Source: Lingula anatina (lineage: Eukaryota > Animalia > Brachiopoda). Taken from it: DNA of 64,000 bases. The translations under genes were made by a program, and so were the position numbers. The notes under the pieces are model-generated. The model made no database searches. It saw only the letters and a program-made list of their open reading frames with translations, and was not told the origin of the DNA. Location: positions 31,267,967-31,331,966 of the forward strand of contig CM120640.1 in the NCBI GenBank assembly GCA_051362555.1, given 5' to 3'. Below, piece after piece: positions 5,696 through 53,400 of this stretch; position 1 is the first letter of the stretch; each line of letters opens with the position of its first letter.

Positions 5696-9739
<4,044 letters not shown>

Positions 9740-25718: not shown

Positions 25719-26608
25719 TAGGCTAAAAGTATCCTTTTTTAGCTTTTTTTATTTATGTATTAATTGATTTTTCTTTCATTTGTCAATTAATTTAGACGTT
25801 TCGATTAACTCTTTCACCCACTTATTAGGTATACAGAAATCAGTCATCCGACTGAACAAATAGGGCCGGTTTTCCCCAACCGCCACGCATAGGCCTTACT
25901 CTCAAAATTTTCCTTCTTTCCTCTGGAAAGGGACTTTGAACACGAACTTTTCTCTTCCCCGTAGTGTACTAGCTAGACTTCTTCGCTGCTAAGCTGATGT
26001 AAGACTTATGACCTATTACCGCACACGTAATCGGCTTATAATTCATTAACTGTGCTCCGACCCCCTCATGGCAACGGCCCTTAGTAACAGAGGCGTGGCT
26101 TAGTTGTCAGCCTGACTGGGGCGCGTGCCGGTTGAAAAACTCATCAAAAGACGCATTTTGCGATGCAAATTCATAAAAATTATTACATCCAACGTTAGAT
26201 ACTCTTTTGATTAATATAAACACACAAAAAACTCAAAAACACGATTTTAAGCGTATTTAACCCTATCACCGGCCTTAAGATAAAGCTGCTGTATTGAATA
26301 GTACATTTGACCTTTCATATGATAACTATTAAGGTTAAACCTGCTTGTGTAAAACTAGTAGTGAAGATAGCACATACTGTATGCAGACATTAAAGAAAGA
26401 AATGAAATAAATTACATGTAAGGCAAGTTGGATGGTTAAAGAATTTTTTAAAAACATTCGAATTAACAGTCAACTTTCACCTCAGCATCAGTTAAATTTC
26501 AACTCAAAACAGAAATATGCATGATAGATGAAGAATGACATGCTTCCAAATACCTCAACTGACAAAACACATTTGAAAACCAAATCAAACTACTATATTC
26601 AACCCAAT

Positions 26609-28334: not shown

Positions 28335-31300
28335 TTACACACAAATGTCACTGGTAGGAGACTGCGCCTGTTTCCCTTTGTGCTTTAATTTGTCGGATTT
28401 ACTGTGGTCTACACTACTTTTCCTCTCTCGTTGAATTCCAGGACCTGGGCAAATGTTAGATTGTTTGTTAGAATTTTTAGTGTTTAATGATAAGAATACA
28501 TTTGGGTAGAACACAATCTGTCTGTACATAAAAATTAATAAAACAGATAGACGAAAGAGTTAAAGAATGGCTTGAGAATGCCAATATAATCCTTTGACTT
28601 TTGATTCTTGAGTGTACATTACCTAGATGAAAACGGACATACGCATATATATAATAAAACAGACTGCCAATGCCTCAAGACATCGAACTTTTGATTTTGC
28701 TACAATTAAAATCAGTGAATCTATTTATTTAACCATAAAACAACTCTCTCTTACCTAATGAAACTAGAGCACTGCCTATAGCTAACCCATTCTGGCCTTG
28801 AGGTGTGAAATCTTCATCACCAGTGGGCAATTGGATGACTATGGACAGCACCGCAGCTTTATGGCCACGTAATGGCTCTATAGCTACTGGGCTGGATTTG
28901 CAAGGCTGAAAGACCAAATGTTCAGCATATGCATACAAGACATAATACTAACTCATATTTACCCAGTTAAAGGTGCTGCTGTCCACAGGCTTTGAAGTTT
29001 GTGTCCTCATCATCAACCATGCAATTTATGTCATATACATTAATTAATTTAGTTTATCCATTGTTGCGTCAACTTAATTTGAGTGGTATAAGAAACAAGT
29101 AGACGTGGTTTATATGCATTACTGGGAATCAACACTTCACTGACACCCCAATTCATATGTACCTTTAAAAGGAGGCCATTTAAATCCACTAAATATTTAA
29201 CTTCATATTATTTACTCAATCATTAGAACCAAGCATATAAAATCCTTTGTTAATCTTACATTACTACCCCGGAACAATTAAGGTTCTACCTTTAAATTAT
29301 TTTTCATCCTTTTCCGAAGATCTACAGGAGGTTGTGGTAATGGTTTTTCCTTGAGCTGTAAATGTTCCTCATCATTTCCACCTTGTAAGTCCAGGCTAAC
29401 TATACTGAATGGACGGCTGGCCATCTGCTGCATCTGGACAAACATCCGCTGAAAAATACATGTGAAAATTAAGGCCACTTCAGGAAAAAATTATTTGTCC
29501 AATTTCAAACAAATATAAGAACTCATAAATCTCGGAATTGCTACTTCATACTTGAAAATGTCATCAATGAATTTAATGACTATCTAATTTAATCAGTGAG
29601 AAGACAGCAATTGGCAATCTCCTCCGATTCTTGATTTGAAATTTTGAAAGTTTAAGACAAAGGGTTATGAGGTTATCTCAGACTGTAACATATGCTGTAA
29701 CTACAAGGCAAAGTACACTCACCTGTCTTGATAAGTAGAGAACATACCGGATCTTGATTTTCCATATAATTATGGCAATCAAAAGGAGGGATATAAAACA
29801 ACTGAAATAAAAAAACCTAATGTGTAAATCAATTGCAATGACTACTTTAATACTGTTTTAAACTTTCACAAAAATCTTTCACATCTTTGGTAATACTCAA
29901 AAACTGCTCTACATTTCATTTTTTTGTACATAAAATGTTAAAATTCATATAAGACTTCAAAATTTTTGAAAGCCATCATGCAAGGAAAAATGAGAGCAGG
30001 TTACCAAACAACTTCCAACATCAAAAATGGCACATATACACACATTATAAAAATGTTTTTCTAGATTTCAACAACAAGATAGAGAATGGCACATAACAGA
30101 CATTAACCAAATAAATTTAAAGAAACAGATTCAATATCTGGACAAGACACAAATTTTTTTATTGTATCGGGAACTGACAAACCTTACATCAGGGCTATGC
30201 ATAGGCCCTTTGGAAAGGGCTGTTCCTTGGGGTGGGGCTCTCGTAGGAGGGTAGATAATACAAAATGTTCACAATTTATACTTTTAGGATTGATAGATCT
30301 ATCATCAGGGACATGTATTTGTATTTGTGAGCCTTGAGGCAGGCCAACCCTTGGGCAAGGATGGTTCTTTTTTTTTTTTCCACATCAAGAATTTCTTCAT
30401 CAGTCTTTTAAACAGCCATGCATGAAATTGCGTTTCTGATGTTGATATCATGCATTGATTTTGATGTTTGTGGCATAGACGCCTAATACATGGGGGTCCC
30501 TAGGGGAGAGCTACTCTTGACAACATGACAAAGTACAGGATGTGTCATGGCTTCATTTGGTACAGTCTGTACGTAGCTTCTAATAAAATCCACTTTGAAG
30601 TTCTATGCTGCGCAAACTTATGCACAGATCCCTTTAAATGCAACCGTTTGTGAGCGATGAAGAGAAACACAACAAAATTCACCATATACTTACCTAAAAA
30701 ATACAACAAAAAAGTTAACCAGATTTACATTAACCTGTTGTGAAAAGTAGATCTGGAATAGATGAGGTCAAAGTCAGAGTAAAGAGGAAACTTCAAGAGG
30801 ACATACCCTGTGTAAGGTCAGGCCATGGTTAGTTTGTGACATTGAATTTTCCACCCAAGTGCAACATCATTGTTTTTGAAGATTGCACGAATTTGGATTT
30901 TGCTATAAACACAACTTTCATCTCAATCTCACATATTGTTATTCATTATTAAACTGTTGTGGCATGGAAATAAGTTTTTTTTTAATTTGCACAAACTAGG
31001 ATGCTGGATTTTGTTGAAATTAGCAATTTGGCACCCAATTTGAAATTGGTGAAAATCACTTTCAAAATATATTTATTTAATGGCTGTCACAGACTTCTGA
31101 GGTGACGGTACATTTTGGTGCTTTTGGGGGGAAAACAGAAAGCAGCAGAGATCATACATCAATAGTTCCTTTTCATTTGCCTCACATGGTTTGTGCATAC
31201 TTAGAAGACTCTAGAAAACCTCTTAAGTCCTCTTTCTGTTATGTCACATCAAGACCATTCCTCCAAATCATCCAAAGGTATCCCAACATTGTGTTAAAAA

Positions 31301-34300
31301 TCATGCAAAAAAAAGAAAAAGAAATACCAACTAACCACTGAATGAGATTAATACTAACCCAAGAAAGGCACCAAAAAATACTGGTAAATTAATTGGAATT
31401 GGAAACAGATAGGCATACCGTGCTTGAAATGAGATCTAAAATATAGAAACAAATATACACACAAATTATGTAGAACTGGTCATGCAACAAATACTACACT
31501 ATTGCCAAGTGGCAGTAAAAAAATGGTAAAATTAGTTTAAAACTAGAAAACTGACCTCTGTGAGAAGCAAAACCAATTTTGAAGCTTTTTTTAATATGCA
31601 CCTTGACATAAAACCATATTTCAGTGTGAGAGTGATTGGTTTTCTAGTTTTATACTAAAACCCTGGGTTATTTGTGCAGTGTCATACAATCAATCATATA
31701 CTTTCTACATACCAAAAGAATGTTACGAAAAAGGTAATCAGGTCTATTTGAGGAAACTGTGAAAATGAGATCTGAAAATAAAAAATTGTTTTTGTTAGCA
31801 AATCGAACTCAGAACTAATTATAATGTTTGATATTTTTTGATAATCAACAAGGTCAATTACTTGTATGAAATGGTGACCAGATTTGGCAGACTGCAAAAA
31901 CTGTGCAGACAAAAACCAATGTTTTCCCTGTATTTCATTAGTTATAAAAACTAGTTCGAACTTAATCAAAATGAAATTATTTTTATGTCTTCAATTGAAT
32001 TTGATTAAAAAGCACTCATGGTTCACTGGATTTCAGCCTATTTTAAAAAAATTTAGGGCAGCAAAGCTGTCAAACGATGACTACTGTGCACAAAATATTA
32101 CATATTGCTTAACACTATAATTTTCCATTAAAGCTGTTATTCAAACTTGTAATTAACTTGTAATTAACTGCTTTAAATCACTCCAGTATGTTTTAGGATA
32201 GAAAGAGACATGATGAAAAGTGCACAGCGACAAAGATGACAGACAACCATGATGGCTGTATGTACTGACACACTGTGTCTGTACATAGAAAAATATATAG
32301 CCAATTTCACCAGGACATATATTTTGGACAACTGTCAAGAAATAAATACCAAATCATAATCAACAGGTCAGGGAATATCATCATTTTATTATAATGAAAA
32401 AACAAGCAAGCATATTTGATTTGGTTCATGTTGAAGCATAAAAAATGCATAATGCCAGAAGCTACAGTATAAATAAGTAAAAAAAAAAAAATTACACAGT
32501 TCAAGTGACCATAATTCATACATTTTCTCATTTTTATTAAGCCATGCAGCAACATTATTGGAATTTGGGGCATCTTGGAAACTTTTTGAGGAATTCATTA
32601 AGTGCATGTGCAACCATGGCCTGGCCACACTCTTTTCAGTTTTAAATGTTAACATTATTACAAATACTTAAAAATCTTTTAAGTCCCCCCCCCCCCCCTC
32701 CAAAAAAAAGTATTGTGTTTCTCGTAAGGAAAAACTTTAAAATGGTGCAGTGGTGGTTTTCCCCTTCTTCTTTTTTCTAATGTATATTGAGTCTAGTTCC
32801 CATAATTCAGGTATCATGCCTGGAATGTTTTGCAAAGTGGTTTCTCAATTTAACTTTTTCATAGTGAAAAATGTATAAAAGATATTTCTAAAAAGATGTA
32901 GACTTATTTCAGCATCCCAAACACCCAGGAAAAATCTCATTATACTGGTTTTATGTTAGAGCTCGGATATTATTTAAAACTTAATTTTAAGGCAAGGAAT
33001 ATTTTATCAATTTGCCTCATCCGATTCGCAACTGAACTTAAATAAACATTTAATTCCAAATTTTAACTTGAGATCACTGTATCAATAATTACTAGTACCA
33101 TGTGCAGCTAGATTAAAAACCTGGCTCTCCAAACATGGAAATTTGAGCTCAAACTACAGTCAAAAACTTTCTAAATGAGGTGCGCTGGCCTGGTGTCCAA
33201 TGAATCTGTCAGCTACGTATTGGGGTACTGCATCTCCGAGGCTCTGAATGTCACAGTGAAATTCCTAAAGTTCATTTTATCATTATGGTTTTAAAAAATC
33301 TGCAGCACACATAAAAGTTTTTATCAATTTCCAACCATTAGTGGTTTTTTCAATTTCTCACTAACTTTGCACCAAAGACCACCGTCTCTGACCAAAAACA
33401 AATAATAGGAGTGGTGCATAAGGTTTCATGTGACATGCACCACGACGAGAAACATAATACCCTTTTTTGGCCTTAAATAAATACATAAAACAACATTCAT
33501 TTTACTCAATTCTCTAAATTTCATCTTTTCTGTTAATACTTCTCAAATAACAGTAAACTTGAAACATATAGTAACATCACTTACCTGTAACCACATAGGT
33601 GTAGTGAAATTATACACATATACATAGAATGTGGTGTTTGTGCCTTCACCAAAATTGTAATCCTTGTGTAGAAATTTTGTCTTGTATGGATAATTATGCA
33701 AACAACTATGTAGTTCTACCCTAGTAGTCTCTGGTTTTCCGTCTGAAAGTGGAAATTCAAATTCCAGGAAAGGCTAATGAGAAAAATAAACTAACATATC
33801 ATTTAAATTAAGTACTATAAATGGTTTAGTCATGTTGCTGACCCGCTGGGTGTATCTACTATTAAAGGTTATGAAATGAACTGTGCCTGCCTATCCACAA
33901 GCAGGTTAAGTAACAATGCCATCAATGCAAAACTCACCAACAGCTACTGTAATATTCATCAATGCTGGCTTTGAGCAATTGATCATAAACTCCAAATCTC
34001 GATCATTCTGAAAACCAATAAATGTATTGGACTCAACTTCATCTGAGATTGATATCTTGCAAATTAATGCATTTTAACTTAAAATATTTTTTTAATCAAT
34101 CCAACTTTTACCAGACTGCTATGTCTTTTTTTAAGATAATTTTTTTAAATAAATGATTTATTTACTTTAACAATGCTAATGAAAATTATAAGCTATTTTT
34201 TTTTAGAAATTAATTTTCCAATTTATTCAAAACAGATGCACTCACAGTTCCAGGTTTATTCATAAAATTGATCTGAGTGAAGTATCGGTCACCTTCCTTG

Positions 34301-37300
34301 GAAAGATTAAAGGTGAATTGGTAGTCTGTGGGCAGTTCATCTAAAATAAGGAACTAACAATGTGAAACAAGAAAACATCATAAAAATCTATCATCTTTAT
34401 ATGGTTAATAACGCATTTGTCAAAGTAAACTTTTAATCAATATATTTCATGGCAAATAGAGAATACGTATAAATTATAAATTGTAAATTTTTTAATTACA
34501 AGTTGTGACTTACAAAAGCATGTCCCAGTCTTTGGATTGCCATAGTAGCGGTTGTCCTTGTCACATCTGCATCAATAACAATAGCTACAGTTAACTGCAC
34601 AGAACAGTAAAATGCAAAATGATTGTCACAGTTTTGTTAATATTTGACAAAAAAGGAATCTACTTCTATAATAAATTTACACACTAACCATGTTTTCAGA
34701 AAAAAACCTGGTGCAAAGCTGGCAAAAATACAGACACCAAACAACTAAATAATTACAACAATTCTTACTGAAAAGACTTTGCAAAAATAATAAATTCAAA
34801 GAAACAGATTCATTAACAACTTGGCAAGATAGATGCCTTTTGCATGATCTCAGAATATCTTAGTTTTTACAAATTTTCCTTTAAATAATCTCATGGTATT
34901 CTGACCAACTATCAAAATGTATCATTGTATCTGCATACTTTTTTTTCAGTTGTTATCAGTAAAGTAGTCTGATTTTTCAAAAAAAAGTTTGGCGCATGCC
35001 AAATGATAATTTACAGTTAGAACAATATTCACAAAATTAAAGTTAACCTATAAACCTCTTTCCAGGCACAAACTATATCAGCAATTTATTAATATTTAAT
35101 GTCTGTTCTGAAGCAGTACTTTCAACTGTTTGATAACTGTACGTGTCAGAACTACTTAACTGGTCTGATATGAAATAGTTGGCATGTGCACCACAATGGA
35201 TTACACACGTCACAGAATCCATATCACAGCAGTGCTTGCAGATGCCAAACAACATTCCCGATTTGTATCAATCACCGATTTCATTAGTCCAAATGAGTAT
35301 TATTAAGGGCTGAGCTGAGTTGACCTTGATATTTCAATACATTTGATTTATCATTTTTCATTATTTCATGATCAGCAAACCATCCTACACTCTCAGTCTG
35401 TACATGAAAATTTTTAAAGAAGATTAAATCTATATGCTGAATCTAATTTAACTTACACTTCACAAAAATTTCCTCGTACTCCTCTGGTGCGGCAGTGGCA
35501 CATCCCTGTGTCATGTTCACAGAAGTCTGCCTGACCATTGCATTCACATGCTAAAGAAAAGAACAGACAATATTCCAGGAAGATCAACAAGCAGTGATTA
35601 ACTGTTCAATGCACAGGTGGCAAATTGGCATCAAAATTCTTGACGTAGATGTTGAAATAAGTTCAAAGGTTCGATAATCGATTATATTGTAAAAGTTCTT
35701 TTGTCACAAAATAACCGCTTAATATACTCATAAATAATTAATATATTCTGTAGTTAATGCTGATGTCATTAGGTGTTGTGTCACAAGAAGACACCTAGTG
35801 ATGTCAGTAGACTGCACATGTCAGATTAACACTACAACAACTGTGAATATCTTAAAACATTAGTTTGTGATAAAGGAACCTTTAAAATCTATGGTAAATT
35901 GAAATCTCTCCAAGATTTTATGCATTATTTTTGGTTTGTCTTTACATGGTATACTAAAACCTCATCCAATGGATTAAAGTATTTTTGGAAATTACATACG
36001 TTTGCAGATCCCTCCATTGGTGGCTTCACCAAAATACCCTGGTGCACATATTTCACACTGGGAACCTGAAACAATCCACACACATAATCCTTACAGGATG
36101 TGCGAGCTCATGTGCCAGTGTGTATGTGCACACATACGCATGCATATGTGAGGAACACACAAATACCACATCTACAAGTTTTTCATCTATACTACTTTGC
36201 ACTACACATTACCAAATGTATTTTTAAAATAAATGAAATGCAATAGTAAGATGGCATTATTGATAAATCATACATTGCCCTACACTACACATTAACAGTT
36301 AACTTTTTGGTTTTAATGTTTTTTGTTATGGTGTTATGAGCCCCTAATTACAGATTTTCATTAAACAAAGACATTATTTTGCTTTATCAACAATAAAATC
36401 TGAACTAAGACTAGCAGGGTTTTGGAGTACATAATGGTATCTTTAAATTGGCATTGAAAAGGTGTGCGTGGGTGCTCAGGTAAAGGAGAATTTGCTATAA
36501 TTTGGTTACCATTACGAGCCATTTTTGGCATAAAATGGGATAAATAGCACCATATTCATCCAGCAGTTTTTTCTGGTCAACTTGCTTCAAACAAATTGAT
36601 GTATTATATGAACTATAAATAATTCTGAACCAAATTGTAGTAGTAGGTATACTTCAGTCAAAATTTTAAATTTCACTATTTTAACTTTAATTTCATATTC
36701 TAACAGGGGACCAATAACACTTATAGTGTGTAAAAATTGACTGGAAACTTACCTTGTGTATTTTGAGTGCATTTCTTGCAGATGGCTGTATTGTTGTAAC
36801 ATTCACTATGACCATTGCACTGACATACTAAAAAGAAGAGTATATTATATTTATATATAACAAATTATGTGGCTTGGAGAGAGTTCAACACTGGTGGGAG
36901 CCTAATAAAAACAAACCATATAAAACAAGTGAAGAAACAGGATGAAACAAATATATAATATTGCCAATCATCAGGTTTTTTTTTTTCAAATGAGTATATA
37001 TCTGGCTCATTCTTTTTTGAGGGCATGATTTATACTTTTCAACTTTACACAGGTTACAAATATTTCATTTTTTACATGTTTACTTGGTTTTCTTACAAAA
37101 TGTTTGTCAATTTTGATGCAATATTCCAAAATGCTTGACTGCATAATGAATGATGAAGAACTCATACTTTTTATTTTGATTTGATTCACTATCTACAGAT
37201 TTCCTGTTTGTGGGTAAAATTGATTAATGTATAACATAGTCCACAAGTTTTAAAAACAGCCCTCATAATGGGCATAAAAATTAGACAATTTTGGAGTTCC

Positions 37301-40300
37301 AACTAAATCCTAGGTCTGCAATTTCTCTCACCTATAAATCACATATAAGTCAAGGTACTCATGAATACTGAAATAAAGCTCATTCTGTACTTTGCACTTA
37401 ATATACACACTTAATCACACACACAGGTACTCACATGGACAACTATAGAAGTACCAACTTGGTGCTGGACACAAGGCTGGTTTGGTCAGTACATTGGAGC
37501 CATTTCTGACCACTGGTCCCTGGTTGTCCCCCTCCCTACAGTGGCCTATCCCTGTGTTAGAACCATCATCACACCAGCCACACAGTGGATTAGACTGGCA
37601 CTGTTCACAAGTCCTTAGCTCGGAGCATTTGGTCGCTGATACACAAAGATAAATATGCTGTGCTAATTTCTTTCATTCTGGTATGCATAAGAATATTATT
37701 TCTAAATGTCCCACGTGGGGAGGGGTTAAAAGAACCCCTTTTTGCAGGGAAAGGTACATGAAGGTTTCATGGTAAAAGGTCCACTTTTACAGAAAAAGAA
37801 CCCACTTTTGTAACTGCTGGCTACAGGCCTGATAGCCCATTCATTATGTTACATAAATAATTCACATGGGAAGTTAATATATTAGCTTTGTGTACATGGC
37901 CCTTGGTCTTGCTTACATGAAATCACCTCATCAAAAATGGACATCAGTTAAAAAACAAACCTGCACATCTTTTCTCTTCAGTGGTCCACTCCAGGCACTG
38001 TCCATAAGGGAAAGACGCCACATAGGAATTAGAGTCCACACAGCGGTTCTCACTACCACACCACATACACTTGGCTGAGGTACAGTTGCCACAGTCATTA
38101 AAGCTGGAGCAGGGAGGATTGCAGCGTTGTTGGTAATCCACCTCTCCCTCTGCAAGCACTGCCTGGTCTGTGGTGCCATCTGGAGTAGGAATAGAATAGT
38201 TTGGTATATATGAAACATTATTGTAGGTAATTACATACAAAGCATAAGAAATTCAATTTTTTTTCACACTGCATTTTATCACTTGGTACTAAATGTATTT
38301 TCCCAAAGAAATTAGTCACATTTGGTCCGCTTTAAAAAAACATCCCTGTAGAATATTTAACTATTTTATATTAATAATCAATTTCATATCCATCAGAAAA
38401 AAACCCTTTGACAGTTTATGACACAATGTTAAATTTAAGAAAGACGTTTGAAGTTAACATAAAATATAAATTAATTATCGTATAAACACCTAATGCAAAA
38501 TACCACCTAAAATGGACTGAATGACCAATTCTCCACTGAATGACTCTTTTTTATTCAAAATATATGAAGCTGCACCATTTGACCCCAAACTAGAGCAGCT
38601 GAAAACTGATCCCATATATTTATGCCCACCTTACTATATAAAATGCTGCAGCTCTTAGGTTTCTATAAACCAACAAAGACATTTTTCACATAGAAAATCA
38701 AAATTTAACCCATAGGACCTTCAAAAAGCAAGTCAAATACAAGGTTAGATTTTCAATCTCCACACTGTCAAATGGCCTCTTTTACAGCAGGGACATTTCC
38801 CAGATTTCCCTTAATTCACAAAAATTATGACAAGGGTCCATTTTGACTAGAGCCACAATGCACACAAAGGCACCTCCTGATCCCAAAATCTAGCAGATTC
38901 AAGATAAGATAAGTGACCTTACACCATCAGATGGGTTCATTGGTCTGTTTAGTTACAGGACTACCAGGAACGGGGAATTGTTTCTTACGCCATGCATTGG
39001 ATATGCATATTTTAGGTATAATTCAAATCTGCTTCAGGGTTGAAACATAATTCACAAGGCAGTCCTGCATTTCAGTATACTATGAACATTGGACAGACAT
39101 TAACCATGGACAGAATAAGGAGCAAGACCAATTTGAATCAGTCACCTATAAATCCAGACACCCTCCAGGCCTTATAAATGGATTAGGTGTTTTCTAACTG
39201 GAACATCAGATCCAGAGCACAAATGCCCAAATTAAAGACTCCAACCGTGAATTAATTACCCCAACATAAAATCATTTGCCACAAGCACAGCATTTCATTA
39301 CACAAACTGTTTATTCACTTTTCTACCTGTTCAGTACCTTCCCTATGTGCCAAAGCTTGTCGAGATGCATTGCTGCCGTATTCATACCCAAATGTATACA
39401 GCCTGAGACCCAAAAGAAAGCTGGCTAAATTGTTTGTGCAATGAAACGCTAAGCTTGTGGCATATAATTACATGTGTTGAGGTTGTTAATTTGTGGCTGG
39501 AGTCATTAATTTGTGCATTTGTGCTCCCAAATCTAAGATTCATGTTAGAAGATGGCAATTGTTGTTTATAAGGCCTGCCCTCCCTCTTGTGGTCTTTAAC
39601 CCTTGAGATTCCAGCTTTAAGACTTGGAGGTTTACACCTTCCACCACTTTTCTACTGCCTTATCTGGTTCTCTGCTATTTAATAATGAGTCAAATGAAAT
39701 GCAGATCAACTTTCAGAAGATAGCCTTCAGCCTGTCCATTCCCTCCTTGGCACAGTGTTGTAACTTAAGTGACAGTGACTCTAACAAAGATAACAGATGC
39801 AGGTAATGGCTAAATGTCCACACAACAATGCCACAAAAAATCTAGGTGACTTTAAATGCTTTTATAAAAAATATTAATCAAAAGCAAAGAACATTCAGAA
39901 TGCTCTAAAATCATGCTTATGACAGGAGACAAAAAACAACAATTTGTTGGGGAGTGTTTTAGACAGGGAAATACCAAAATAAATGGCACTTAAGAAATAC
40001 CAAAATAAATGGCACTTAAGACAACTAGAATCCAAACTGATCTAATTTCGAGCAAGTCAACATACAGACCAGGCTATAAAAAGGCATTACGATAAGAAAC
40101 TCAGAGGCAGGTGCAACAAACAGATAACAAACAGCTATGACGAAGCATGACCAATATCATGCACTCACCCACAGAGCGAAGGTATGTTATACAACGTTTG
40201 TCACTTTTGTACCAGCCACAATAAGTTTGCATGTGACAAGCTTGGCAATTGTGTAACTTGTCACACTCACTGCTGTACTTGGCCTTGCATTGACCAAGGG

Positions 40301-41420
40301 GTGACACTAGCTGCAGGTGGATAAAAAGAAATGGTGTGGAATTTAAAATTAGTTGTGAAGGCACTCTGTAATCTGCACAAAAGTTTGACTCAGGTTTTAA
40401 AGCACATCATTGGTGGACATGTTTCCAACAGCACCAATTTTTATTGGTTTACACAGGTCAACAGAGAGGTTCACATTTTTAGCAAATGCTAGATTTGCAG
40501 CTGAAGACTAAAGAAATCTTGAAAATGAACTATCAACCAATATCTAAAACAGTACCGAGATACCACTGATGGCATATAAATCCTGAATCATACTTTCTCT
40601 TCCAAATGTTATTTTTACAGTCCTACCATGAAAACAGTCTTTAGTACTATCTCGCCAAGTGCAATTGGCTGAGGCCAGAAAGCATGCTGCACAATTGTGT
40701 AGATAGGGACACTCTGCACCTTGGTCATGTGATGAACATGTATCCTGGAGACCATTAAACTGGAACATAAGAATCAGGTCATCCACAACATACATACCAA
40801 ATATACTTATTGTGCCATTCTTAACTCCATCTAAAAGGGCAAGAAAACTCTTGCCACTTACTGTAAAGCAGCCCTTTAATGTTTGAACATACATACATAA
40901 AGAAAATATCAAACAGTTTAAATGTATCCATTTATGATCAACATAAAAAATAGCTTTATAGAATCTGTTTTCGTACTTTGCCAAATGAAATATACTTGTA
41001 CATTTTAAGTGCAATGAAAAAAAGGTTCTGGCAATAATGAAGGGAACATCACACAATAAAAAAAAAAACTTTTAAAAACTGACCATACCTATTTTCAAAT
41101 TGATCCCATCTTTTGTTTAACAAAAACTTCTAGTAAAATTTAAATTAAACAAAAAACCAATTTGATAACTATGTTGTGGGCATTGTAAAAACACATGCAA
41201 ATGGAAAATAATACAAAAAAAAAAAGAAAAAAAATACATAATTACTTAATTTACTTGGAAAAAAAAACAAAACAAAAATACATTGCTTTTTGAACTCAAC
41301 CCGTTTTCTTGCTGAACAAATGCAATAACACATACATACACACAATTTTTGTGTCTGTTTGCAAAATCATTATATTAACTGATATTTTCTATGTGGTGCT
41401 TGTAATTTTAAAAAAATCAT

Positions 41421-41480
<60 letters not shown>

Positions 41481-44400
41481 TACAGAACTACAGTTATCCT
41501 TGGACTTGCAATGATGCCCACACCAGCTGCAGTTGTATGTATTCTCTTGACAACTTGGACAGGAAGTGAAATTTTCACAATAGCTCTTCCCAATGTCTGC
41601 AATTATTCAGTAAATGGTTATGGGTCAAAATACAAAATGTAACTTATTTTGCAATGACTACTAAACTTCATGTATATCTGGCAAAAATTTTCCCTTTTAT
41701 AAATCAGAAAAATCACCCCTCTGTGAAAGTGTTTCTGAAGTTACCATAAATTGAGATGAAAGACATTTTTTTTATAAAACACAGAAAAAGGTACATTAAA
41801 TATCCTCTTCCTAAATGTTATATGTTGCTCACTTATCAATTATTGAAAACATAATAGATGCTCTTCCTGTATTGTCTTGCCAAAATGAATTTTTAGTTGT
41901 CTCCACATATTTGAAAATCCCCCATGGTCATATTTATTTAATTTCCCAATTCAGACTCTACAGACAAAAAAACTCTTTCAATAAAATTTATCGGAAGCGT
42001 ACCTAGCAGTGTTATTTTCTTGTTGTCACCGTTCTCTGATATCCCTTACCAACTTGCAACATATGTTTTTTACATGGTACAGGGCTGCCCGATTCAAAAC
42101 ACCCCCACTATCTTCTTGAATAAAAACGAGGCAATGCTCATGAAGACAGACGTCATTTCTGACCACTGATTAAAACTTAAGTAGTAAAAATTCCATGGAG
42201 AGCAGATTTAACAAAATGCCTGTCAAAATCTTGATCTATCTATCTATACATACATACCTTTTCTTTTGCACCAAGGCTCAACCCTCGTCCCGGGCATTTT
42301 CTCTGCATCTTCTAGTGAATAACATTTGTCCAACCAAGTACATCGCAAGCCCTGGTGAGTGGAAATGCAGTCTTCTTTGGTTCCATACTTTTCACATTTT
42401 CCTGAAAAGAATCAACATATCACTTATGTGAACAAAATATATAATTTAAGGTGAGTAATTCATTGTAACAAAGAAAAACAAGGCAGCAAAGCTGTCAAAT
42501 GTACAGACAAAAAACAGAAAAAAAAAGATGCAAAAGAGGTCATTTTGTCAATTTTGATGCAACAATAAATAATGCTTATAATAGCAGTCAGTCAACACTA
42601 TTTTTTCATTATGCACAACAGGTAACATGGTCAATAACAGGAGCAGATCCAGAAATATTTTTGGCAGTATTCTAAAGTATCTTTATTGATCCATCTTGCA
42701 TTTTGATGGTCTTCCAAAAGAAAAAAATAGATACCCATCAATATAAAAAATCTAACTGTCTTCCAGGAGACCCAGAAGATGGTCTCAATCCACCCCTTCA
42801 ATAAGATTATAGTTTCATGACCATGAGAGTTAAAATTCACATGATGAAAGTCCCAATATAAGAAAAATGATGACAGTGCATAAAATAATATTACTAGTGT
42901 TTAAAGACATGAATACCAATACAACTGCTTACGTGGAAATACAGAAATTGTGCAGAGCCTCAGGTGGATGGGAAAGTCACATCTTAAAAATGCCAGTGTT
43001 GGAGAAGAAATTAAAAAGAAAACAACAAAAATATAATCTAATGAAGCTGCTATTCAGTGCTTCCTTATTATGGACACTGTTATCCAGCAGAGAGCTTAAC
43101 CTTTGGGAGTTTACAGGGAAATATCAACAAGTATGATTTATGAAATCTCATTTAATGGCCACTTAATCAGGCAAATGAGTTTATAGCACTAAACTTAGCC
43201 TAGTGAATACCCAAGGGGAATTTACAGACTGACCACACAAATTTGTCCCATAAGACACAGCTTAAGAAAAGCACAAAACAATAATGCACAAAAATAGGAG
43301 ACTGCCAATTCTGATGCAATAGTACATTATGTTTAACTGCACAGTCAATATCAAATTTTAATTATGCAGAACAGGTAACAACGACGAAAGTAAAAGCATA
43401 AGGCTTCAGGTCCATCAAAGTTCAAATTTACAATTAGAAAGAGCCAGAATGAGAAAAATGAAAATTTAACACAAAATTGCATAAATTCAATAATAAATGA
43501 CAACCCAATTGAGCTGGCTTTCTAATTTGAACTGCATGCCGATCCTAAAAATCATACTTGTAAGTTAAACATAATAATAAGTAACACAGTTTTCTTTCCA
43601 TAATGTTTGCAGAAGCAGTACAAAAATATTTTTGTCAATTTTGATGTAACATTACATAATAATTTATAGAATAATGATCACCAATTTTTTATTATTGACT
43701 ATGAATAGCAAGGACATGTAGAAAATTTGATTACCATTCGGCTTCATGTCCATGGGAGTTCTGAGTCCCACAATGAATATGCCAAAAAGATAATAATGAA
43801 TATTTCACTAAAATGTATAAATTCCAGAAAAAGAAGCCAATTAGACTGCTTTTCCAACTTTTTTTGAAAGATTGAGTCGTAAGTAACATGATTTTCCCAT
43901 AATGGTCATCATGGCAGCAACACCAAAAATTATGTTTTCTTCTATTTTGATGCAACATTACATAATGTTTAACAGCATAATGACCATCAATTTTTAATAA
44001 TAAAATATTAGTATCATGGATATTCAGAAAATGTGACTAGCAAAGGTCTTCAAGCCCGTGGAGGTTCTAAGTCACACCTTGAAAATGCCAATAAATGAAT
44101 AATTAAATTTTCACAAAAAACTGTTTAATTGCCAGAAAAATTTACCAAACAGACTGCATTGCCTACTGAAGCTATATTTTAGTCCCATGTTTCTTTCCTG
44201 TAAGTTTGAGAACAGTGAGTGATATGATTTTCCTTAAATGATCATCATGGGAACAGTGCCCAAAATAGGGGTTTCTTCAAATTTTGATGCAATATTACAT
44301 AATGTTTAACAGCATAATGACCATCAATTTTTAATAATAAAATATTAGTATCATGGATATTCAGAAAATGTGACCAGCAAAGGTCTTCAGGACCATGAAA

Positions 44401-47400
44401 CTTCAAAGTCACATCTTGAAAATGCCAAAATGTAAACAAGACAGCACTTTTCTGAAATGGGTTTATTTCCATTTTAACACTTTTTTAACATAAAACAAAA
44501 TTAACAATTAACTGCCATTTTTATATGACCAACTAATAAAATTGATGAGATGGGGAAAATATCAATAGAACAGTGTTAAATGTCCAATTTCCTCCATCTA
44601 AGATTCTGAACATAGTGGATGATTGAATATGACAAATTGCAATGATATGAGTTTATTTCCAGTTTTGACACTTCATTACACAATACATGATAACAAATTT
44701 ACCATCATTTTTACATAATCAACTGACAATGTTGTAAAGATGCAGGAAATGTCAAACAAACACTTTTATGTATCTTATTAGTTCAATAATGAGACTATTA
44801 ACATGCCTAAGAATTGAATCTGAGGAAATGTGAAAAAAAAGCATAACTTCTAAAATAATGGACCGATTATGCTGATTTTCATACTCAACCTATGTTTTAG
44901 TAAGATTGACCACTCTTGTGAGTAAAATGACAATTTGCCTATCTGTTTTTCTTATATTGTATTATCAGTGTTGTATATATGCTAAAAAAATGAAAAAACA
45001 GCATAACTTCCATAAAAGTGGCTCTATCATGCTGTTTTTCAAACTTTACCTGCGTATTATGAATATTCATCAGTTCTGTAAGTTTCAAGCCAAAAGGTAA
45101 AATGGTATTTCACATATCGTGTTATCGGTGCTGCATATATGCTGAGAAAAGTGAAATAAAGATGCAAATAAGTGAAAAATTAAATTTTCACAAAAAACTG
45201 TTAAATTGCCAGAAAATTTTACCAAACAGACTGCGTTGCCTATTGAAGCTGTATGTTAGACCCATGTTTCTTTCCTGTAAGTTTGAGAACAGTAAGTGAC
45301 ATGATTTCCCTTAAATGGTCATCATAGGAGCAGTGCACAAAATAGGGGTTTCTTCAAATTTTGATGCAACATTACATAATGTTTAACAGCATAATGACAA
45401 TCAAATGTTATTAATAAAATATTAGTAACATAGACATTCAGAAAATGTGACAAGCAAAAGTCTTCAGTATCATGGAACTTTAAAGTCACACCTTGAAGAT
45501 GCCAATATGTGAAAAATTAAATTTTCACAAAAAACTGTTTAACTGCCAGAAAAAATTAACAAACAGACTGCATTGCCTACTGAAGCTGTATTTTAGCCCC
45601 ATGTTTCTTTCCTGTAAGTTTGAGAACAGTAAGTGACATGGTTTTCCTTAAATGGTCATCATGGGAGCAGTGCCCAAAATAGGGGTTTCTTCAAGTTTTG
45701 ATGCAATATTACATAATGTTTAACAGCATAATGACCATCAATTTTTAATAATAGAATATTAGTAACATGAACATTCAGAAAACGTGACTAGCAAAGGTCT
45801 GCAGGCTCATGGAACTTCAAAGTCACACCTTGAAAATGCCAATATGTGAAAAATTAAATTTTCACAAAAAACTGTTTAACTGCCAGAAAAAAATTACCAA
45901 ACAGACTGCATTGACTACTGAAGCTGTATTTTGGCCCTATCTTTCTTTCCTGTAAGTTTGAAAACAGTAAGTGACATGGTTTTTCTTAAATGGTCATCAT
46001 GGGAGCAGTGCCCAAAATAGGGGTTTCTTCAAGTTTTGATGCAATATTACATAATGTTTAACAGCATAATGACCATCAATTTTTAATCATAAAATATTAG
46101 TATCATGAATATTCAGAAAATGTGATTAGCAAAGGTCTGCAGGCTCATGAAATTTCAAAGTCACAGCTTAAAAATGCCAAAATGTAAACAAGACAGCACT
46201 GTTCTGAAATGGGTTTATTTCCATTTTTAACATTTTTTAAACATAAAACAAAATAAACAGTTTGTTGCCATTTTTATATGACCAACTAAGAAAATTGATG
46301 AGATGGGAAAAATATCAATAGAACAGTGTTTAATGTCCAATTTCCTCCATTCTGAGATTCTGAACATGGTGGATGATTGAATCTGACAAACTGCAATGAT
46401 GAGTTTATTACCATTTTTGACAGTTTATTACACAATACACGATAACAAGTTTCCCATCATTTTTGCACAATCAATTAACAATGTTGTAAAGATGCAAGAA
46501 ATATCAAACAAACACTTTCACGTATCTTATTAGTTAAATAATGAGACTGTTAACATGCCTAAGAATTGAATCTGAGGAAATGTGAAAAAAAAGCATAACT
46601 TCTAAAATAAAGGCCCGATCATGCTGATTTTCGAACTTGACCTGCGTATTATGAATATCCATCAGTTCTGTTAGTTTCAAGCCAAAAGGTAAAATGTTAT
46701 TTCACTTATGGTGTTATCGGTGTTGCATATATGCTGAGAAAAGTGAAAAAACAGCCTAACTTCCCTAAAAATGACCCGATCATGCTGATTTTCGAACTTG
46801 ACCTGCGGATTATGAATATTCATCAGTTTTGTAAGTTTCAAGCCAAAAAATAAAATGGTTTTCCACTTATCGTGTTATCGGTGCTGCATATATGCTGAAA
46901 AAAGTGAAAAAACAGCATAACTTCCCTAAAAATGGCCCGATCATGCTGATTTTCGAACTTGACCTGCGTATTAGGAATATTCACCAGTTCTGTAAGTTTC
47001 AAGCCAAAAGCAAAAACGGTGTTCCACTTATCGTGTTATCGGTAAAAGTGCAAGACGGCGACGACGGCGACGACAGACGCAGGTGATGGCTATATGTACA
47101 GACACATCTGTGTCTGTACATAAAAAAGAAGATAAAGTACATTCATATACAGGCCATTCCATAAGCTTTCCCCTTCAAAACATCACCCCCCCCCCCCCCT
47201 GTATTTTTCTTCTTTCAATGTCACACACATAAAAAAGTAAAAAAGAATTCAATATTATTTCACTAAAGTAAATTTGTTGAAATAAAATCTTCAATAATTG
47301 TTGCAGAAAGGAAAATACTTCGTATTTAAGCACAATTATATTTTTAGTCAATGACTACGAGATGATATACACTGAAACTTATAAAGCAATTTTAATTGTA

Positions 47401-50400
47401 TTCATAAATGCTTCAGCTTAAAAAATACACCAAAATTTGTATATAAACTTGTCATACAGAACAATGGCACATTTTACCTGGTGTGTACTGAAACATATCT
47501 CCTAACATAAGTCCATTAAAGCCACCATAGATGAACATTTTCCTGAAATATAAAAATAATGTAGACTCAGAACACTTAAAATCATACAAAAAAAAATCTA
47601 CTAGGATTTAAGAATCAGTGCTATACTACAAGTCAACTTTGCACTATAAAACCTTTGACAGCTGAATCCAACTTACTGATCATACACTTCTGCTGAATGT
47701 CCAAATCTTGCTAGATCTCCTCTCACCCTGGGCTCAGGTAAGGTGTACCACTGATCACAACCTGTAATAACAGATTTTGCTAGGTTAAGACACCTCAATA
47801 TTTCAGAGCATTTGTATGTCCATAATTTCAACTTAATATCAATTTAACTTTCATTAAAAATAACTACAGTAACTTAACAATAAAAATCTGAATATCAAAC
47901 GCCATGTCAGCCACCTGAACAGGGACGGATCCAGAGATATTTTCTGACATTCTTCCTAATTATCTTTGCTTAGCCATCCGACATTTTTGACTGTCTTCCG
48001 ACAGAAAAAATTGGATACCCAACAATGTTAACTTGAAAATCTGACCGTCTTCCGGAAGACCCAGAAGACGGCCTCAATCTGCCCCTGCTGAACAAAGAGG
48101 AGATCAGTTGCTTGAATCTTACCAAGGTCATATCCCAAAAAATTTAGGGAATGACATTTTGCCCCATGACTGGTAGAAGTATCATTATGTGTATTTCCAC
48201 CAAACACCAACATTAGTCCACTGATGACAACTGCTGAATGAAGGTAGCGCCTCTGGCCACTGCTGTGTAAAATCACCCTGAAGGAAGCATTGCACGGAAT
48301 AATTCGATGTAAGACTAAGCTACTGCATTTTTACATTTTGATCTATTACTGGACTTCGAATGCCCAAGTCTAGTCATGTCCTGTGACAGGTTTGAAAAGA
48401 CATAGTTTGCAAGTGCATACAGAGTGAAATCATCTGGAATTTTGCATCTGATATTTTAACTTATATGAGCTCAACAGATAACTAAAATCTTAGTACTAAT
48501 ATATTTATTAATGACCAACTTTGGGAAATGATGCCACAAAGGAAACTCCATAAATCACACAAATTGTAAGCAATATATCAATAGTAAGTATGGTATGTCT
48601 TTCACATACCAACATAAATGAAATATTAAAGAAAAGGAACAGCTACACAAAAACTGTACTATATATAGAGACTTACCATTTGTTTGTGGTTGTCTCAAAG
48701 CTATATAATTCATCTGATATCTTGTATGTAGAGACTGCAGTGGAGTGGTAGCCACCATGAACATAGATCTTATCCTTATGGTAAACACTTGTATGGCCAT
48801 AACCTCCCTTTACAATTGCCCCTGATGTCCGGACAAGCTGACAGGATCCAATGACTAAGTAAAACCAAGAGGATCAAGTTTATCTCAATTACGCCAGCAT
48901 TTACATAGCAAATCAATGCAAGTTGTATGTTAGTTAGTCTTATTTGTACTTAAACTTCTAAAAGTTTGTTAAATAAAATATGCAACACATGAGCTGTCTT
49001 AATTAATACTTCATAGACTAGTGTACAACACAAAAAGATGGTCAAAAAGCATTGCCTTCTTTTATTGCTTATCAAATGCTAAGAGCAAAATATAACATTT
49101 TGAAAATTATTTAGTCAATAAAATAAATATTGCACATGGCTACCATACATACTATATCCATTGATAAAATTAAGAAAGCATTAACTTATAATAAATAATC
49201 ACTTCAGTAAACAAACTCCAAAAACAAATCCATTTTCATAGCTCCTAGACAAAAATAAGTCATTTTTTCTGGGGCGTTTTCATAGCAGACAAGCATATAC
49301 CATAAGTCTTTCAAAAAAGAAAAAGTACGTACCTATATCACATTTTTGCACAGTATTCAAGTAACCAAAGACAGGACTGTGTCCAAATATGACTATCATT
49401 TCACCATTCACGTAGTGGGCAGTGTGTCCAACAACCTGAAGTCCGGTCTGGTTGACCAGCAGCCAGTCTTTTGTATTTATATTGAACTTCCACAGTTCAT
49501 TAGTCACTTGTTTTTTGCCCACTAGTCCTCCATACATATATATGTCATTCTGAAACAAGTAAAAATGTGGTGAAAATTAAATGCCAAAATACCTGTTCTT
49601 CAATGGAATTTGTTAGTATGCTATGAGTGAGATAATGCACTGTCACCCAAGCCATTTATAAATGTTCATGGCACATATTGCCAGTGTATTTATAAACACA
49701 CATATCAAAAGAAAGTACTTTCCTTTACCCATAACACAGTTCCTCTCGGCTTTTCCACAACCTCATGGTGCTATGCTGTTCAGGGACATGTGTCACAAAA
49801 GAAAATGTTACACGTTTCCAACCTAAAACTTCCAATTTTAAATAGAATACGCTCATAACACTATACACAGGGTGATGTCAAATAACGGCCTTTCCACTTT
49901 TACAAGTTTCTGCTCAATTGCAAACTGGAATTAAATTTAAGCAGGGTCATTTGTCCCTGGAACAATTGCTTTTGTTACCTTTACTAATGAAATATTGAAT
50001 ATTTTATCACCATATTTGTTTGTATGACTATGTTGCTTATTTGTATTTGAAGCAATTCGACCATCCATACAAGCCAGTATTGCACATACCAGTATGTCTG
50101 TTCTCGTGTCATCTTACATAAATGTTCCTTGTATAAATTCTTTCTGTTTTACTTTACTGTGAGGTTCTCTTTCATTTTTATCAGCAATTGAATGCCATTG
50201 TTCATGATACAATCTCTCATAATACCACACACTAGAATTTGTGGGCTTTAAATACCTTTGAGAAGTGGAGCATTGTCAGGAATAACAAACATATTTTTGA
50301 TAATGAAGGAAACGACATACACAATGACCAGTACAACAAAATGTTTTGTCCTATTGAACAGATGGATGTGGATCTCCGTAACTACTGGATATCAATGTTC

Positions 50401-53400
50401 ATTGATATCCAGTAGTTACGGATATCCATGGAACAAAAGTAATAAGTCACACAAAGAAAGAAAGATGTACATTGAGCATCAGGCTAAGAGACAGGAAGAA
50501 AATGAAGTAGAGAAGAGAACAGATCAAGGTGAGGAATGTGCTGCTTACAATTCAGGAAATGAAATGGAAATGGGCAGGACACGTCAGTAGAATCAAGGAT
50601 GTCAGATGAACTATAAGGCTGAATGAGTGGTCACCAAGATATGGACATAGAAAACAACTAAAATATAACCTAAGTCCCGCATAAAACAACCTACTATCAT
50701 TGCCTGATGTGTATGAAATGGCAATTCTCCAGACACAAGTAGTGACAATCTGTCCATTGAAGTAATCAAAGCTGATAACCAGGGCAGGCTATGGAAGGTC
50801 AATGACAGCAATAAGCAATACAGAATTATAAAGATATTAAGTAGTAATTACATACTGTTATTCTTTTGTTAGATTTCTATATCATAACTATTTCAAAATC
50901 AATAACCTATTAATCACCCTAATTACCTACCTGTATCATTACCAGTGTATGTCCATATCTTTTGGGTGGATTTATAACTGTGCTGGGCTCTACTGCTTCC
51001 CAAAACTTGTTTACCATATCAAATCTGAAGTAGAGCAACAAAGAACAAGTAAATTAAATCAGACATTTGTACGTATATAATAAACAGCAGTTAAAAATAT
51101 AGACTCTCAAAAGAATAAAGATATAAGACCACTTTGAGCCTCTGAAAGTCTAGCCTCAGACTTCTACTGCAAATACAGGGACAAAAAAAAAGAAGCAAGT
51201 GAAGCAGAAAATAGCTATCATAACAGTGCACTAAATGATATCACATAATGTTTAACAGCATGAAAAACAACCAATCATGTTTTACTATTAATGTGGACAT
51301 TCAGAAAACGTAACTGGCACACCTTGAAAACAAAATTCATTTACAGCAATGTAAAGGTTACATTTCAAAGAAAAGAACTGAAAAGTTTCCTTTGCATAAC
51401 AATAAAAAATCAGCATTTATATGACAGAAATGGTCATGTTTATCCCATTACTCTATATTATTACCAGTATCTATATATATATGAAGAGCCAAGACATCAA
51501 CATACCTTGCTATCTGCTGAAATGTAGATCCACCAAAATGTTCTCCCCCAATCAACCACATGTGATCTCCATGTAACACAGTCCTATGAGAAGCTCTTCC
51601 ATCTATGTGTACAGAGGTAGTGTACACTACTTGTTCCCATGTGCCATTCTTCTCTGTTAAATTGCACCTTGGACCTGTGACAGCAATCATTTAATAATAA
51701 AACATCCAATCATTACATTTAAAATGATAAATTCAATAAAAGTAATTGGATGTGATATCAATTTGAGAAGTATGGTTTCCATAGTGGGCATAAAGCACTG
51801 TTTTACTTAATAATAAAATGTAATCTGTTGACATTTTCAAGACAACGACAACAAATATACATGGAAGGCACATGTTCATTTTTTTTTATCTACACCAAGA
51901 ATGACTACTTAATTCAGATGAAAACAAACCTAAGAACCCCGTGTTACAATAGCATCCCCCTATAGTGTAGTTACAGCGTCCATATCTCCCACAATCATTG
52001 GGACATATCTCCTCAGAGCAGGAGACACCTCTCCAGCCTTGGCTACAGTTACAGACATGCCCATTACAGCTTCCATGACCAGAGCAATTATTGGGACAAC
52101 CTCCGATTCTGAAAGGAAAGGTAAAATAACACTTAAGAGTGTGTGTATGCGTAAGTGTGCATTTTATTTCGTATTTGTACTTTATTTTGAACATTTTTGA
52201 CAAGGGTGCACTGTGAAGAATGTTACTGCTATGCACATCATTGAGCCCAAAATGTAGCAGGTTCAATTACATAATAATATATATGACCAAATAAAATTCA
52301 AGAACAAATCGTTATTTCATTAGGCTGAAGAAGACATATGCTCATGATGAAACGACATTCAATTACAGCAAAATACATCAAACATATTAATCTACCATAG
52401 GTCGTGTTATCTATGCATGTGCAATTCATAATAAAAATGACAGCAAGAAAATAAATCATGTTTTATTTTTGGCAAAGACAATGCTTACTGATATGAAATA
52501 TTGAATCCTGATATGTTGTAAGCTGCATCACTGAAGAAATAAAGAAAAGCTTTGCCCGACTTGGTTGTGACTTCTGGGACACTATGGCTCTGGTTTTTTA
52601 ATGTCTCTTGTACAACCAATCCACTGTAAAAAGAAACACAATATATAATCATAATATATAATCATATTGTGATGTTCTTCAGATACAAAGTTATATTAGA
52701 ACATCAATATAAACACTTTTCATTATTAATGTCACATCAAAGGTATAGCACCATAACTACTTCAAGGATCCATTAATATAACAATTACCTTTTTTTTAAG
52801 TCCACTCTTAAATTATGCATTGCCCAAGATCAGTCATATCCAATTAGAGAGCTAAAGAAAAAGCTTCACGGACCAAAGCGCCTTTATTTGATATTAACTG
52901 ACACCATGTGCAGTGTAACAACCATCTCCACTCATCCAATCAATACAGGAGCACAGCCACTGCTGCAACTGTAGGCAGGTTATATACACCCCCATTAAAA
53001 AGGCAATACTTTCTGACTGTTAGAATTTAACTAGACATCCATGATAGCACATATATACAGGCATTCAACTGTAAACAACGGAATACCAAGAAACGGACTC
53101 GATGACTTTGAGGCAAGATGGATGGGGAAGGATTTCTTAAACAAGGCAGCAAAGCCATCAAATAGACAGACAAATAAATGACAAAAGTAACGGAAGCATT
53201 ATCATGAAAATAATGAAGAAGCAATTTAACAATGAAAGTGCATAAAATGGTTTAAGTCACAGTGTAACAAGGGACAATCAAAGACTGACCAGCCAGTATA
53301 CCCATATATCAAAGCAAACAAACGAGGTGCCTGTTCCAAGCTGGCACATTCCATTACTACACTCTTAATTTGTTCAAAATAAGCTTGTGGGCTAAAATAA

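What the first reader, a model, noticed from the sequence alone, without database searches (positions are those of the whole stretch)
30694..31771. Three tandem, mutually exclusive transmembrane exons in attractin: a TM-switching cassette
Seen in sequence: between constitutive exon 33585-33742 (...TPMWLQ, ends phase 0) and exon 29723-29801 (starts phase 2, CFISLLLIAIIIWKIK) lie three paralogous exons. They encode ISFSQFPQIDLITFFVTFF, ISFQARYAYLFPIPINLPVFFGAFL and IYFSQQVNVNLVNFFVVFF. Each begins ag|ATC T, is stop-free, ends in phase 2 at a GT donor, and has length 59, 77 or 59 nt (all 2 mod 3). Including zero, two or three shifts the frame, so exactly one must be used. They are strongly diverged yet keep frame, splice sites and the hydrophobic pattern, which suggests purifying selection. 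Established: attractin-family proteins are single-pass adaptors whose MASRPF tail (present at 29290-29448) binds the E3 ligase MGRN1 to down-regulate membrane receptors, and vertebrate ATRN/ATRNL1 have one such exon as far as I recall. Inference: swapping only the juxtamembrane segment and outer half of the TM helix could switch intramembrane partners or substrates, or ectodomain shedding, of a membrane-tethered ubiquitin ligase complex. I do not know of this having been described.
Basis: partly seen in the sequence, partly recalled or inferred. Interest (0 to 1): 0.88.

Follow-up and report, generated by a model that had tools for sequence, protein, structure and literature searches.

The report
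Swappable membrane-anchor exons in attractin
A brachiopod's attractin gene holds three side-by-side versions of the exon for the outer half of its membrane anchor; RNA reads show two of them used one at a time while the third is intact but was not seen spliced, and the swap likely changes which membrane proteins this ubiquitin-ligase adaptor engages, an untested idea.

Summary
Exons A (31713-31771), B (31359-31435) and C (30694-30752) have the stated ends and phases; only single inclusion keeps the frame. The gene is Lingula anatina attractin. RefSeq already models A (X2) and B (X1), not C. In 8 RNA runs, listed joints: A 57 and 51 reads, B 5 and 22; none listed for C, skipping or double inclusion. 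The same 19-residue block, and nothing else, is swapped between same-length isoform pairs of three scallops and an apple snail; whether the duplication is shared or parallel is unresolved. The cassette codes the end of the last stem strand, the linker and the outer ten helix residues, the region by which paralog MEGF8 binds MOSMO; mammalian ATRN does not bind MOSMO. New here: a second duplicated exon pair (PSI repeat, 40627-40759 / 40169-40310), also swapped in bivalves, and a candidate RNA pairing upstream of C. No paper on it was found; the scan had noted nephrin analogues, not attractin. Function is inferred only.

The parts
28335..57535 (-). Attractin gene, coding span (CUB, EGF, kelch propeller, PSI repeats, laminin-EGF, stem/GBD-like domain, one TM helix, MASRPF tail)
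   Evidence: tblastn of P0001 on the window; Pfam; exon 33585-33740 is 100% identical to Lingula anatina attractin-like X2
33585..33742 (-). Constitutive upstream exon (stem domain), ends in phase 0
   Evidence: joints to A and B
31713..31771 (-). Alternative exon A, 59 nt, the major and widely conserved form (16-17 of 19 residues shared with the common mollusc and nemertean form)
   Evidence: 57 upstream and 51 downstream joint reads; RefSeq X2
31359..31435 (-). Alternative exon B, 77 nt, linker 6 residues longer
   Evidence: 5 upstream and 22 downstream joint reads, all in the three runs of one study; RefSeq X1; model
30694..30752 (-). Candidate alternative exon C, 59 nt, intact, consensus splice sites, not seen spliced
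   Evidence: no joint listed in 8 runs; absent from the 3 database proteins of the cluster
29723..29801 (-). Constitutive exon with the inner half of the TM helix
   Evidence: joints
29290..29448 (-). Constitutive exon with the MASRPF motif
32610..32631 (-). Candidate upstream pairing (docking-like) element, predicted only
   Evidence: -30.5 kcal/mol duplex with 30809-30832; its 15-nt core matches only there in 64 kb; no difference listed in 32609-32647 in 4 reads of a diverged sample
30804..30832 (-). Candidate selector about 55-80 nt upstream of exon C, predicted to pair with either of two partners
30174..30196 (-). Candidate downstream partner that would loop out exon C, predicted only
   Evidence: -27.7 kcal/mol
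40627..40759 (-). Second cassette: PSI-like exon P1, 133 nt, phase 0 to 1, used in the RefSeq models
40169..40310 (-). Second cassette: PSI exon P2, 142 nt, phase 0 to 1, not in the three Lingula database proteins; closer than P1 to the common bivalve form
   Evidence: Pfam PSI E 3e-4, 21.5 bits, just under the 23.1 cut-off; RNA not tested

Best explanation
This is a cluster of tandem-duplicated, mutually exclusive exons in Lingula attractin: A is the main form, B a minor spliced form and C a likely rare or stage-restricted third form, and the choice likely changes which membrane proteins the adaptor contacts while its ligase-binding tail stays the same. Shown: exon anatomy; frame logic; splicing of A and B singly. 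Predicted: the cassette gives six residues of the last stem strand, the linker (4 residues in A, 10 in B) and the first ten helix residues. Inferred: wrong combinations shift the frame and would be removed by nonsense-mediated decay; competing RNA pairings around the element upstream of C may gate C; the changed outer-leaflet face and linker would retune binding to a co-receptor or substrate receptor that is then ubiquitylated by MGRN1.
For: Frame test. Joint reads for A and B on both sides, none for doubles or skips. RefSeq X1/X2. Same-length isoform pairs in Pecten, Mizuhopecten, Argopecten and Pomacea differ only inside this block. B joints occur only in study P3 (22 B against 36 A; other studies 0 against 15; Fisher p 0.003, reads not independent), which fits regulation. 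Models, mean pLDDT 85. The block aligns with the MEGF8 linker and helix start (E 2e-6); in the MEGF8-MOSMO structure the last strand, linker and helix contact the partner (PMC12458338 section 6). How adapters set MGRN1 substrate choice is called unresolved in PMC12752501 (passages).
Against: No C joint in 8 runs (6-30% of each run read; rows need 3 reads in one run; one row hidden). Mammalian ATRN and ATRNL1 do not bind MOSMO, and overexpressed adapters were interchangeable on MC1R/MC4R. No partner or substrate of Lingula attractin is known from these calls. P3 samples differ from the window at many fixed sites, so B's pattern may reflect population rather than tissue. 17 of 21 clusters examined show no swap, and 3 metagenome loci with introns on both sides hold one exon only. 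The RNA pairing was found after the fact, has no A or B counterpart (61 of 493 windows pair as well as the site before A) and conservation was not testable.
Confidence: 0.55

Rival explanations
1. Only A and B are live; C is a silent duplicate not yet decayed, perhaps kept off by the pairing that loops it out.
For: No C joint against 73 downstream A+B joints; C is not in the database models; 6 of 10 shared A/C residues keep the same codon, so the copy need not be very old; the -27.7 kcal/mol pairing encloses C.
Against: C kept length, phase, frame, a consensus donor and the hydrophobic pattern through 21 base differences from A, while no similarity of the flanking introns was found beyond the acceptor; tissues and stages sampled are unknown.
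Confidence: 0.3
2. The swap sets where the protein goes (cell compartment, membrane domain, oligomer state), as for Dscam TM1/TM2, and not what it binds.
For: Dscam TM isoforms differ by localisation rather than biochemistry (PMC7685093 abstract); localisation is offered as a route to specificity in PMC12752501; helix hydrophobicity is similar in the three forms (2.7-3.0).
Against: The cytoplasmic side, where most sorting signals lie (general knowledge), is unchanged; the changed part faces the outer leaflet.
Confidence: 0.25
3. B is a shedding switch: its longer, less ordered linker exposes a cleavage site and yields soluble attractin, a parallel to the human secreted form.
For: B's linker is 10 residues against 4, local pLDDT 67 against 86; human ATRN makes a soluble form by an alternative terminal exon placed before the TM-coding exons (PMC3554611 passage).
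Against: The scallop, snail and C alternatives keep the short linker, so shedding cannot explain most cases; B's linker is hydrophobic and proline-rich.
Confidence: 0.12
4. The copies are near-neutral: exon duplication at this spot is tolerated and the isoforms do the same job.
For: Patchy distribution (4 of 21 clusters); the alternatives of different lineages share only 8-10 of 19 residues; no functional data.
Against: The scallop alternative is conserved across three genera (15-18 of 19 identical) while 7 of 19 identical to Lingula A; B makes up about 30% of downstream joints.
Confidence: 0.15

Closest known systems
Drosophila Dscam1 exon 17 (TM1/TM2)
   Same: Tandem alternative exons for a single-pass membrane anchor, used one at a time; competing RNA pairings are reported for that cluster (PMC6071210 passages).
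   Different: Two exons there, three here; here only the outer half of the helix and the extracellular linker change, the cytoplasmic side is constant; the host is a ligase adaptor, not an adhesion receptor.
RefSeq isoform pairs of attractin in Lingula (X1/X2), Pecten maximus, Mizuhopecten, Argopecten and Pomacea
   Same: The same block is exchanged at the same boundaries; these are automatic annotations of the same phenomenon.
   Different: They show two forms only; C and the P2 exon are not in the three Lingula proteins; no paper discussing them was found; their genomic layout could not be read here.
Human ATRN secreted/membrane splicing
   Same: Alternative splicing just before the TM-coding exons of the same gene family (PMC3554611 passage).
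   Different: An L1-derived terminal exon removes the anchor; here paralogous internal exons replace part of it. Identity of the exact intron was not tested.
MEGF8-MOSMO-MGRN1 complex (PDB 9qqs, 9qty)
   Same: Homologous helix and MASRPF tail; the cassette corresponds to the linker and helix start that contact MOSMO.
   Different: A paralog; mammalian ATRN does not bind MOSMO; no alternative exon is described in the passages read.

Membership tests
Tandem-duplicated mutually exclusive exon cluster | Adjacent homologous exons in one intron | tested here: met
Tandem-duplicated mutually exclusive exon cluster | Same splice phases, each alone keeps the frame | tested here: met
Tandem-duplicated mutually exclusive exon cluster | At least two members spliced on both sides | tested here: met
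   A and B
Tandem-duplicated mutually exclusive exon cluster | Every member is spliced (exon C) | tested here: inconclusive
   no C joint listed in 8 runs of low depth and unknown tissue
Tandem-duplicated mutually exclusive exon cluster | No joint inclusion or skipping in mature RNA | tested here: met
   none listed at the 3-read threshold; decay of frameshifted RNA could hide them
Docking-site/selector controlled clusters (Dscam type) | One docking site complementary to a selector at each exon | tested here: not met
   strong pairing only before C (-30.5); before A -22.1 (61 of 493 windows as good), before B -14.5
Docking-site/selector controlled clusters (Dscam type) | Pairing conserved with compensatory changes across species | not testable with these tools
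   no related genome held; only 4 reads of a diverged sample over one arm
Attractin (ATRN/ATRNL1/Distracted) | CUB, EGF, kelch propeller, PSI, laminin-EGF, stem domain, one TM helix | tested here: met
   GBD_ATRN E 8e-41
Attractin (ATRN/ATRNL1/Distracted) | MASRPF motif after the helix | tested here: met
Attractin (ATRN/ATRNL1/Distracted) | Binds MGRN1 and promotes receptor ubiquitylation | not testable with these tools
   shown for mammalian ATRN (PMC12752501 passages) and fly Distracted (PMC8254101, search listing only); not for Lingula

The most novel reading that the evidence does not exclude
Lophotrochozoan attractin is a splice-programmed ligase adaptor: two exon cassettes (2 PSI x 3 membrane-proximal exons, up to six proteins in Lingula; both cassettes also in scallops) inherited from a common ancestor of brachiopods and molluscs retarget MGRN1 to different surface receptors in different cells, giving a natural swap series that pins substrate choice to about 20 residues at the outer leaflet.
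Probability: 0.15. Interest if true: 0.82.

Novelty: new member of a known kind. Interest (0 to 1): 0.52.

Why it matters
How transmembrane adapters give MGRN1 its receptor specificity is a stated open question (PMC12752501 discussion). These isoforms are natural, minimal swaps of the strand end, linker and outer helix with everything else constant, so they make the question directly testable. That brachiopods, scallops and a snail vary the same small exon, and brachiopods and bivalves the same PSI exon, marks these two spots as tuning points of the attractin family, whether by ancestry or by repeated evolution. As a splicing phenomenon it is a familiar kind.

Tried and rejected
No whole genome is held, so no search for a second copy, MGRN1 or MOSMO. 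Depth of 5.6 over the bin holding C in run X2 came with no C joint and the flanking intron bins were also covered, so I read it as unspliced RNA. A search of shorter proteins with the B isoform gave 8 hits, none B- or C-like. The profile-free search of representatives gave 36 hits, one a repeat artefact (P0261); most confirm an intron after the upstream exon. Of 33 metagenome loci none showed two TM exons; most are cDNA-like, fused to the upstream exon or too short, and three (L021-L023) span both introns with one exon. My early idea that C is the orthologue of the cephalopod exon is not supported: 13 of 19 identical to C but 12-13 of 19 to A. A tree of the 19-residue block could not be built; the PSI tree (32 rows, 51 columns) left orthology open. 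Fold searches listed generic beta-sandwiches (best Z 9.5) and not MEGF8, so the MEGF8 mapping rests on sequence alignment. Escape from a stem-binding bacterial toxin was considered (PMC12632345 passages) and set aside: the strand modelled there as the contact lies in a constant exon (34246-34340). Whole-region folding added nothing. No complex was predicted because no partner is known. Literature: eight searches listed no paper on alternative TM exons of attractin, judged from titles and abstract starts; ATRN, ATRNL1 and MEGF8 are absent from the held supplements of two human catalogues of such exons. Tang et al. 2000 is not held; bioRxiv supplements are closed and most subscription papers are not searched.
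Full report
Observation. Each follows a pyrimidine-rich AG, begins ATCT and ends at a GT donor. The upstream exon (33742-33585) ends in phase 0 and the downstream exon (29801-29723) needs two bases. Of eight combinations translated, only A, B or C alone reach the MASRPF tail; zero, two or three exons give stops. The junction residue is Cys, Gly or Ser. Chance is excluded: with a profile from 28 homologous blocks of other animals, A scores 61.6 and C 46.1 against 19.8 for the best other stretch among 41,050 stop-free 19-mers, of which only the hydrophobic ones were scored. With a free linker length, B scores 31.5 against 20.3 for the best unrelated of 1,701 AG..GT candidates.

Identity. The upstream exon is 100% identical to Lingula anatina attractin-like isoform X2; the window differs from that model at a few other residues. 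The database cluster has three proteins: X2 and a second-scaffold copy carry A, X1 carries B, none carries C. Two of the three forms are therefore already in automatic annotation. Pfam gives the full attractin architecture.

Splicing. Eight of nine offered RNA runs were laid, 6-30% of each. Listed joints, summed: upstream-A 57, A-downstream 51, upstream-B 5, B-downstream 22. No joint was listed for C, for skipping all three, or for any two together. A row needs three reads from two starts in one run, and one row was hidden, so rare C use is not excluded. Runs X3 and X5 gave no listed joint for either exon. All B joints came from the three runs of study P3 (22 B to 36 A, against 0 to 15 elsewhere; Fisher p 0.003, with reads not fully independent). 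P3 samples also differ from the window at fixed sites, so tissue and population cannot be told apart. In X8 and X9 eight fixed differences were listed in the three flanking constant exons and none in A or B (27 weaker rows hidden), which fits constraint but is too little to prove it.

Other animals. In 21 clusters examined (at most 15 members listed each) the block is swapped in 4, covering five species: Lingula, Pecten maximus, Mizuhopecten yessoensis, Argopecten irradians and Pomacea canaliculata. In the four mollusc pairs of equal length every difference lies inside the block. Oysters, mussels, Mya, Dreissena, abalones, octopuses, Lineus and the four arthropod clusters showed one form. These are gene models; I could not read their genomic DNA. 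The scallop alternative is conserved among three genera (15-18 of 19) but shares only 8-9 of 19 with C and cannot be matched to B or C; the cephalopod form is about equally close to A and C. Three metagenome loci that span both introns hold a single exon, and none of 33 held two. Shared ancestry and parallel duplication are both open. That 6 of 10 shared A/C residues keep the same codon leans a little to a younger, lineage-specific copy.

What the cassette codes. Models of the A and B forms (mean pLDDT 84.6 and 85.8) put the first six cassette residues in the last strand of the stem beta-sandwich, then a linker of 4 (A) or 10 (B) residues, then the first ten residues of a long helix that runs on into the cytoplasm. 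The linker and helix align with MEGF8 in its solved complex (E 2e-6). In that structure the last stem strand, a polar linker and the helix contact the tetraspan MOSMO, and this contact is needed for substrate recognition (PMC12458338, section 6 read whole; other passages). I infer, without checking the numbering, that the linker histidine named there is the one aligned with the cassette linker. Against a direct analogy, mammalian ATRN and ATRNL1 do not bind MOSMO, and overexpressed adapters were interchangeable (PMC12752501 passages). The same paper calls adapter-based substrate choice unresolved. A 2026 review has no occurrence of 'splic' (PMC13161197 passages).

How exclusivity may work. The introns between the exons are 277 and 606 nt with GT-AG ends, so steric or U12 exclusion is unlikely (inference). 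Frameshift followed by decay is enough to leave only single inclusions and is a recognised route (PMC6071210 passages). In addition, the strongest predicted long-range duplex of the 3.8-kb intron joins 32631-32610 to 30832-30809, looping out A and B and ending about 55 nt before C (-30.5 kcal/mol); the second strongest joins the same element to 30196-30174 and would loop out C (-27.7). Block shuffles reached the best value in 4 of 251 and 6 of 252 cases and both top values in 1 of 252; 3 of 8 overlapping control stretches of the gene had a stronger helix, all local hairpins. The 15-nt core occurs only at these two places in the window. No comparable selector exists before A or B, and three differences of the P3 samples fall in the weak site before A. 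This is a lead, not a Dscam-type docking system.

A second cassette. The gene also holds two PSI-type exons, 40759-40627 and 40310-40169, both phase 0 to 1; either alone gives the native frame, both give stops, neither shifts the frame. The Lingula models use the first. The same block is swapped in all 8 bivalve isoform pairs I selected for it (three scallops, four oysters, one mussel), and scallops have models for both cassettes. The second Lingula copy is nearer the common bivalve form (scores 75-117 against 56-82), but the tree does not settle orthology. It lay outside both read lays, so its use in Lingula is untested. If all are used, the gene makes up to six proteins.

Verdict. A real mutually exclusive cluster, shown for A and B, plausible for C (my estimate about 0.65 that it is used somewhere). 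The kind is well known: Dscam1 exon 17 (PMC7685093 abstract), and this scan has noted similar anchors in nephrin genes (unchecked AI notes) but nothing on attractin. Eight literature searches found no account of it in attractin (listings only), and two human catalogues lack the gene in their held supplements. The known human splice choice removes the anchor instead (PMC3554611 passage). I commit to a partner-selection role as most likely, with localisation, shedding and near-neutrality as rivals; none was tested. Novelty: new member of a known kind. Interest 0.52.

Noticed in passing
window 40169-40759 (-): Second duplicated, frame-exclusive exon pair (PSI repeat) in the same attractin gene; the copy at 40169-40310 is missing from the Lingula database proteins, and the same block is swapped in scallop, oyster and mussel isoforms.
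   Followed up: partly
window 12782-16286 and 17698-19578: Large inverted repeat (about 1.7 kb at 96%, plus 0.9 kb at 97%) with a 146-nt tandem array in both arms (15.8 and 4.8 copies); an exon of a DUF4517 gene (16902-17096) sits in the spacer and another (about 12372-12662) just outside the left arm. Foldback-type element or assembly artefact.
   Followed up: no
window 5699-9129 (-) and 59589-64000 (+): Neighbouring genes: MAK16 (Pfam L28e and Mak16 hits) and NOC3, the latter head-to-head with attractin about 2 kb from its start codon.
   Followed up: no
window 39245-39522 and 50393-50430: Strong local hairpins in attractin introns (-33.7, -32.5 and -39.1 kcal/mol); the first lie in the intron after the second PSI exon; a -27.9 pairing links 40670 (inside P1) with 38085.
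   Followed up: no
P0028, P0158, P0159, P0162 (Dreissena polymorpha models): Some models carry a five-residue near-duplicate of the start of the TM exon between the upstream exon and the TM exon, others do not.
   Followed up: no
L001:397-817, L002:3331-3734, L003, L007-L009, L012: In these metagenome loci the upstream exon and the TM exon are fused with no intron between them, which would prevent this cassette from arising; the intron after the TM exon is kept.
   Followed up: partly
window 23300-23510, 25266-25723, 43865-47043: Short tandem arrays (60, 161 and 337 nt periods) and a 1.3-kb direct repeat at 88% in intergenic and intronic DNA.
   Followed up: no
runs X7, X8, X9 on window 27500-33800: These samples differ from the window at many fixed sites (dense in the 3' UTR and introns), which suggests a diverged population or cryptic species under the same species label.
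   Followed up: no
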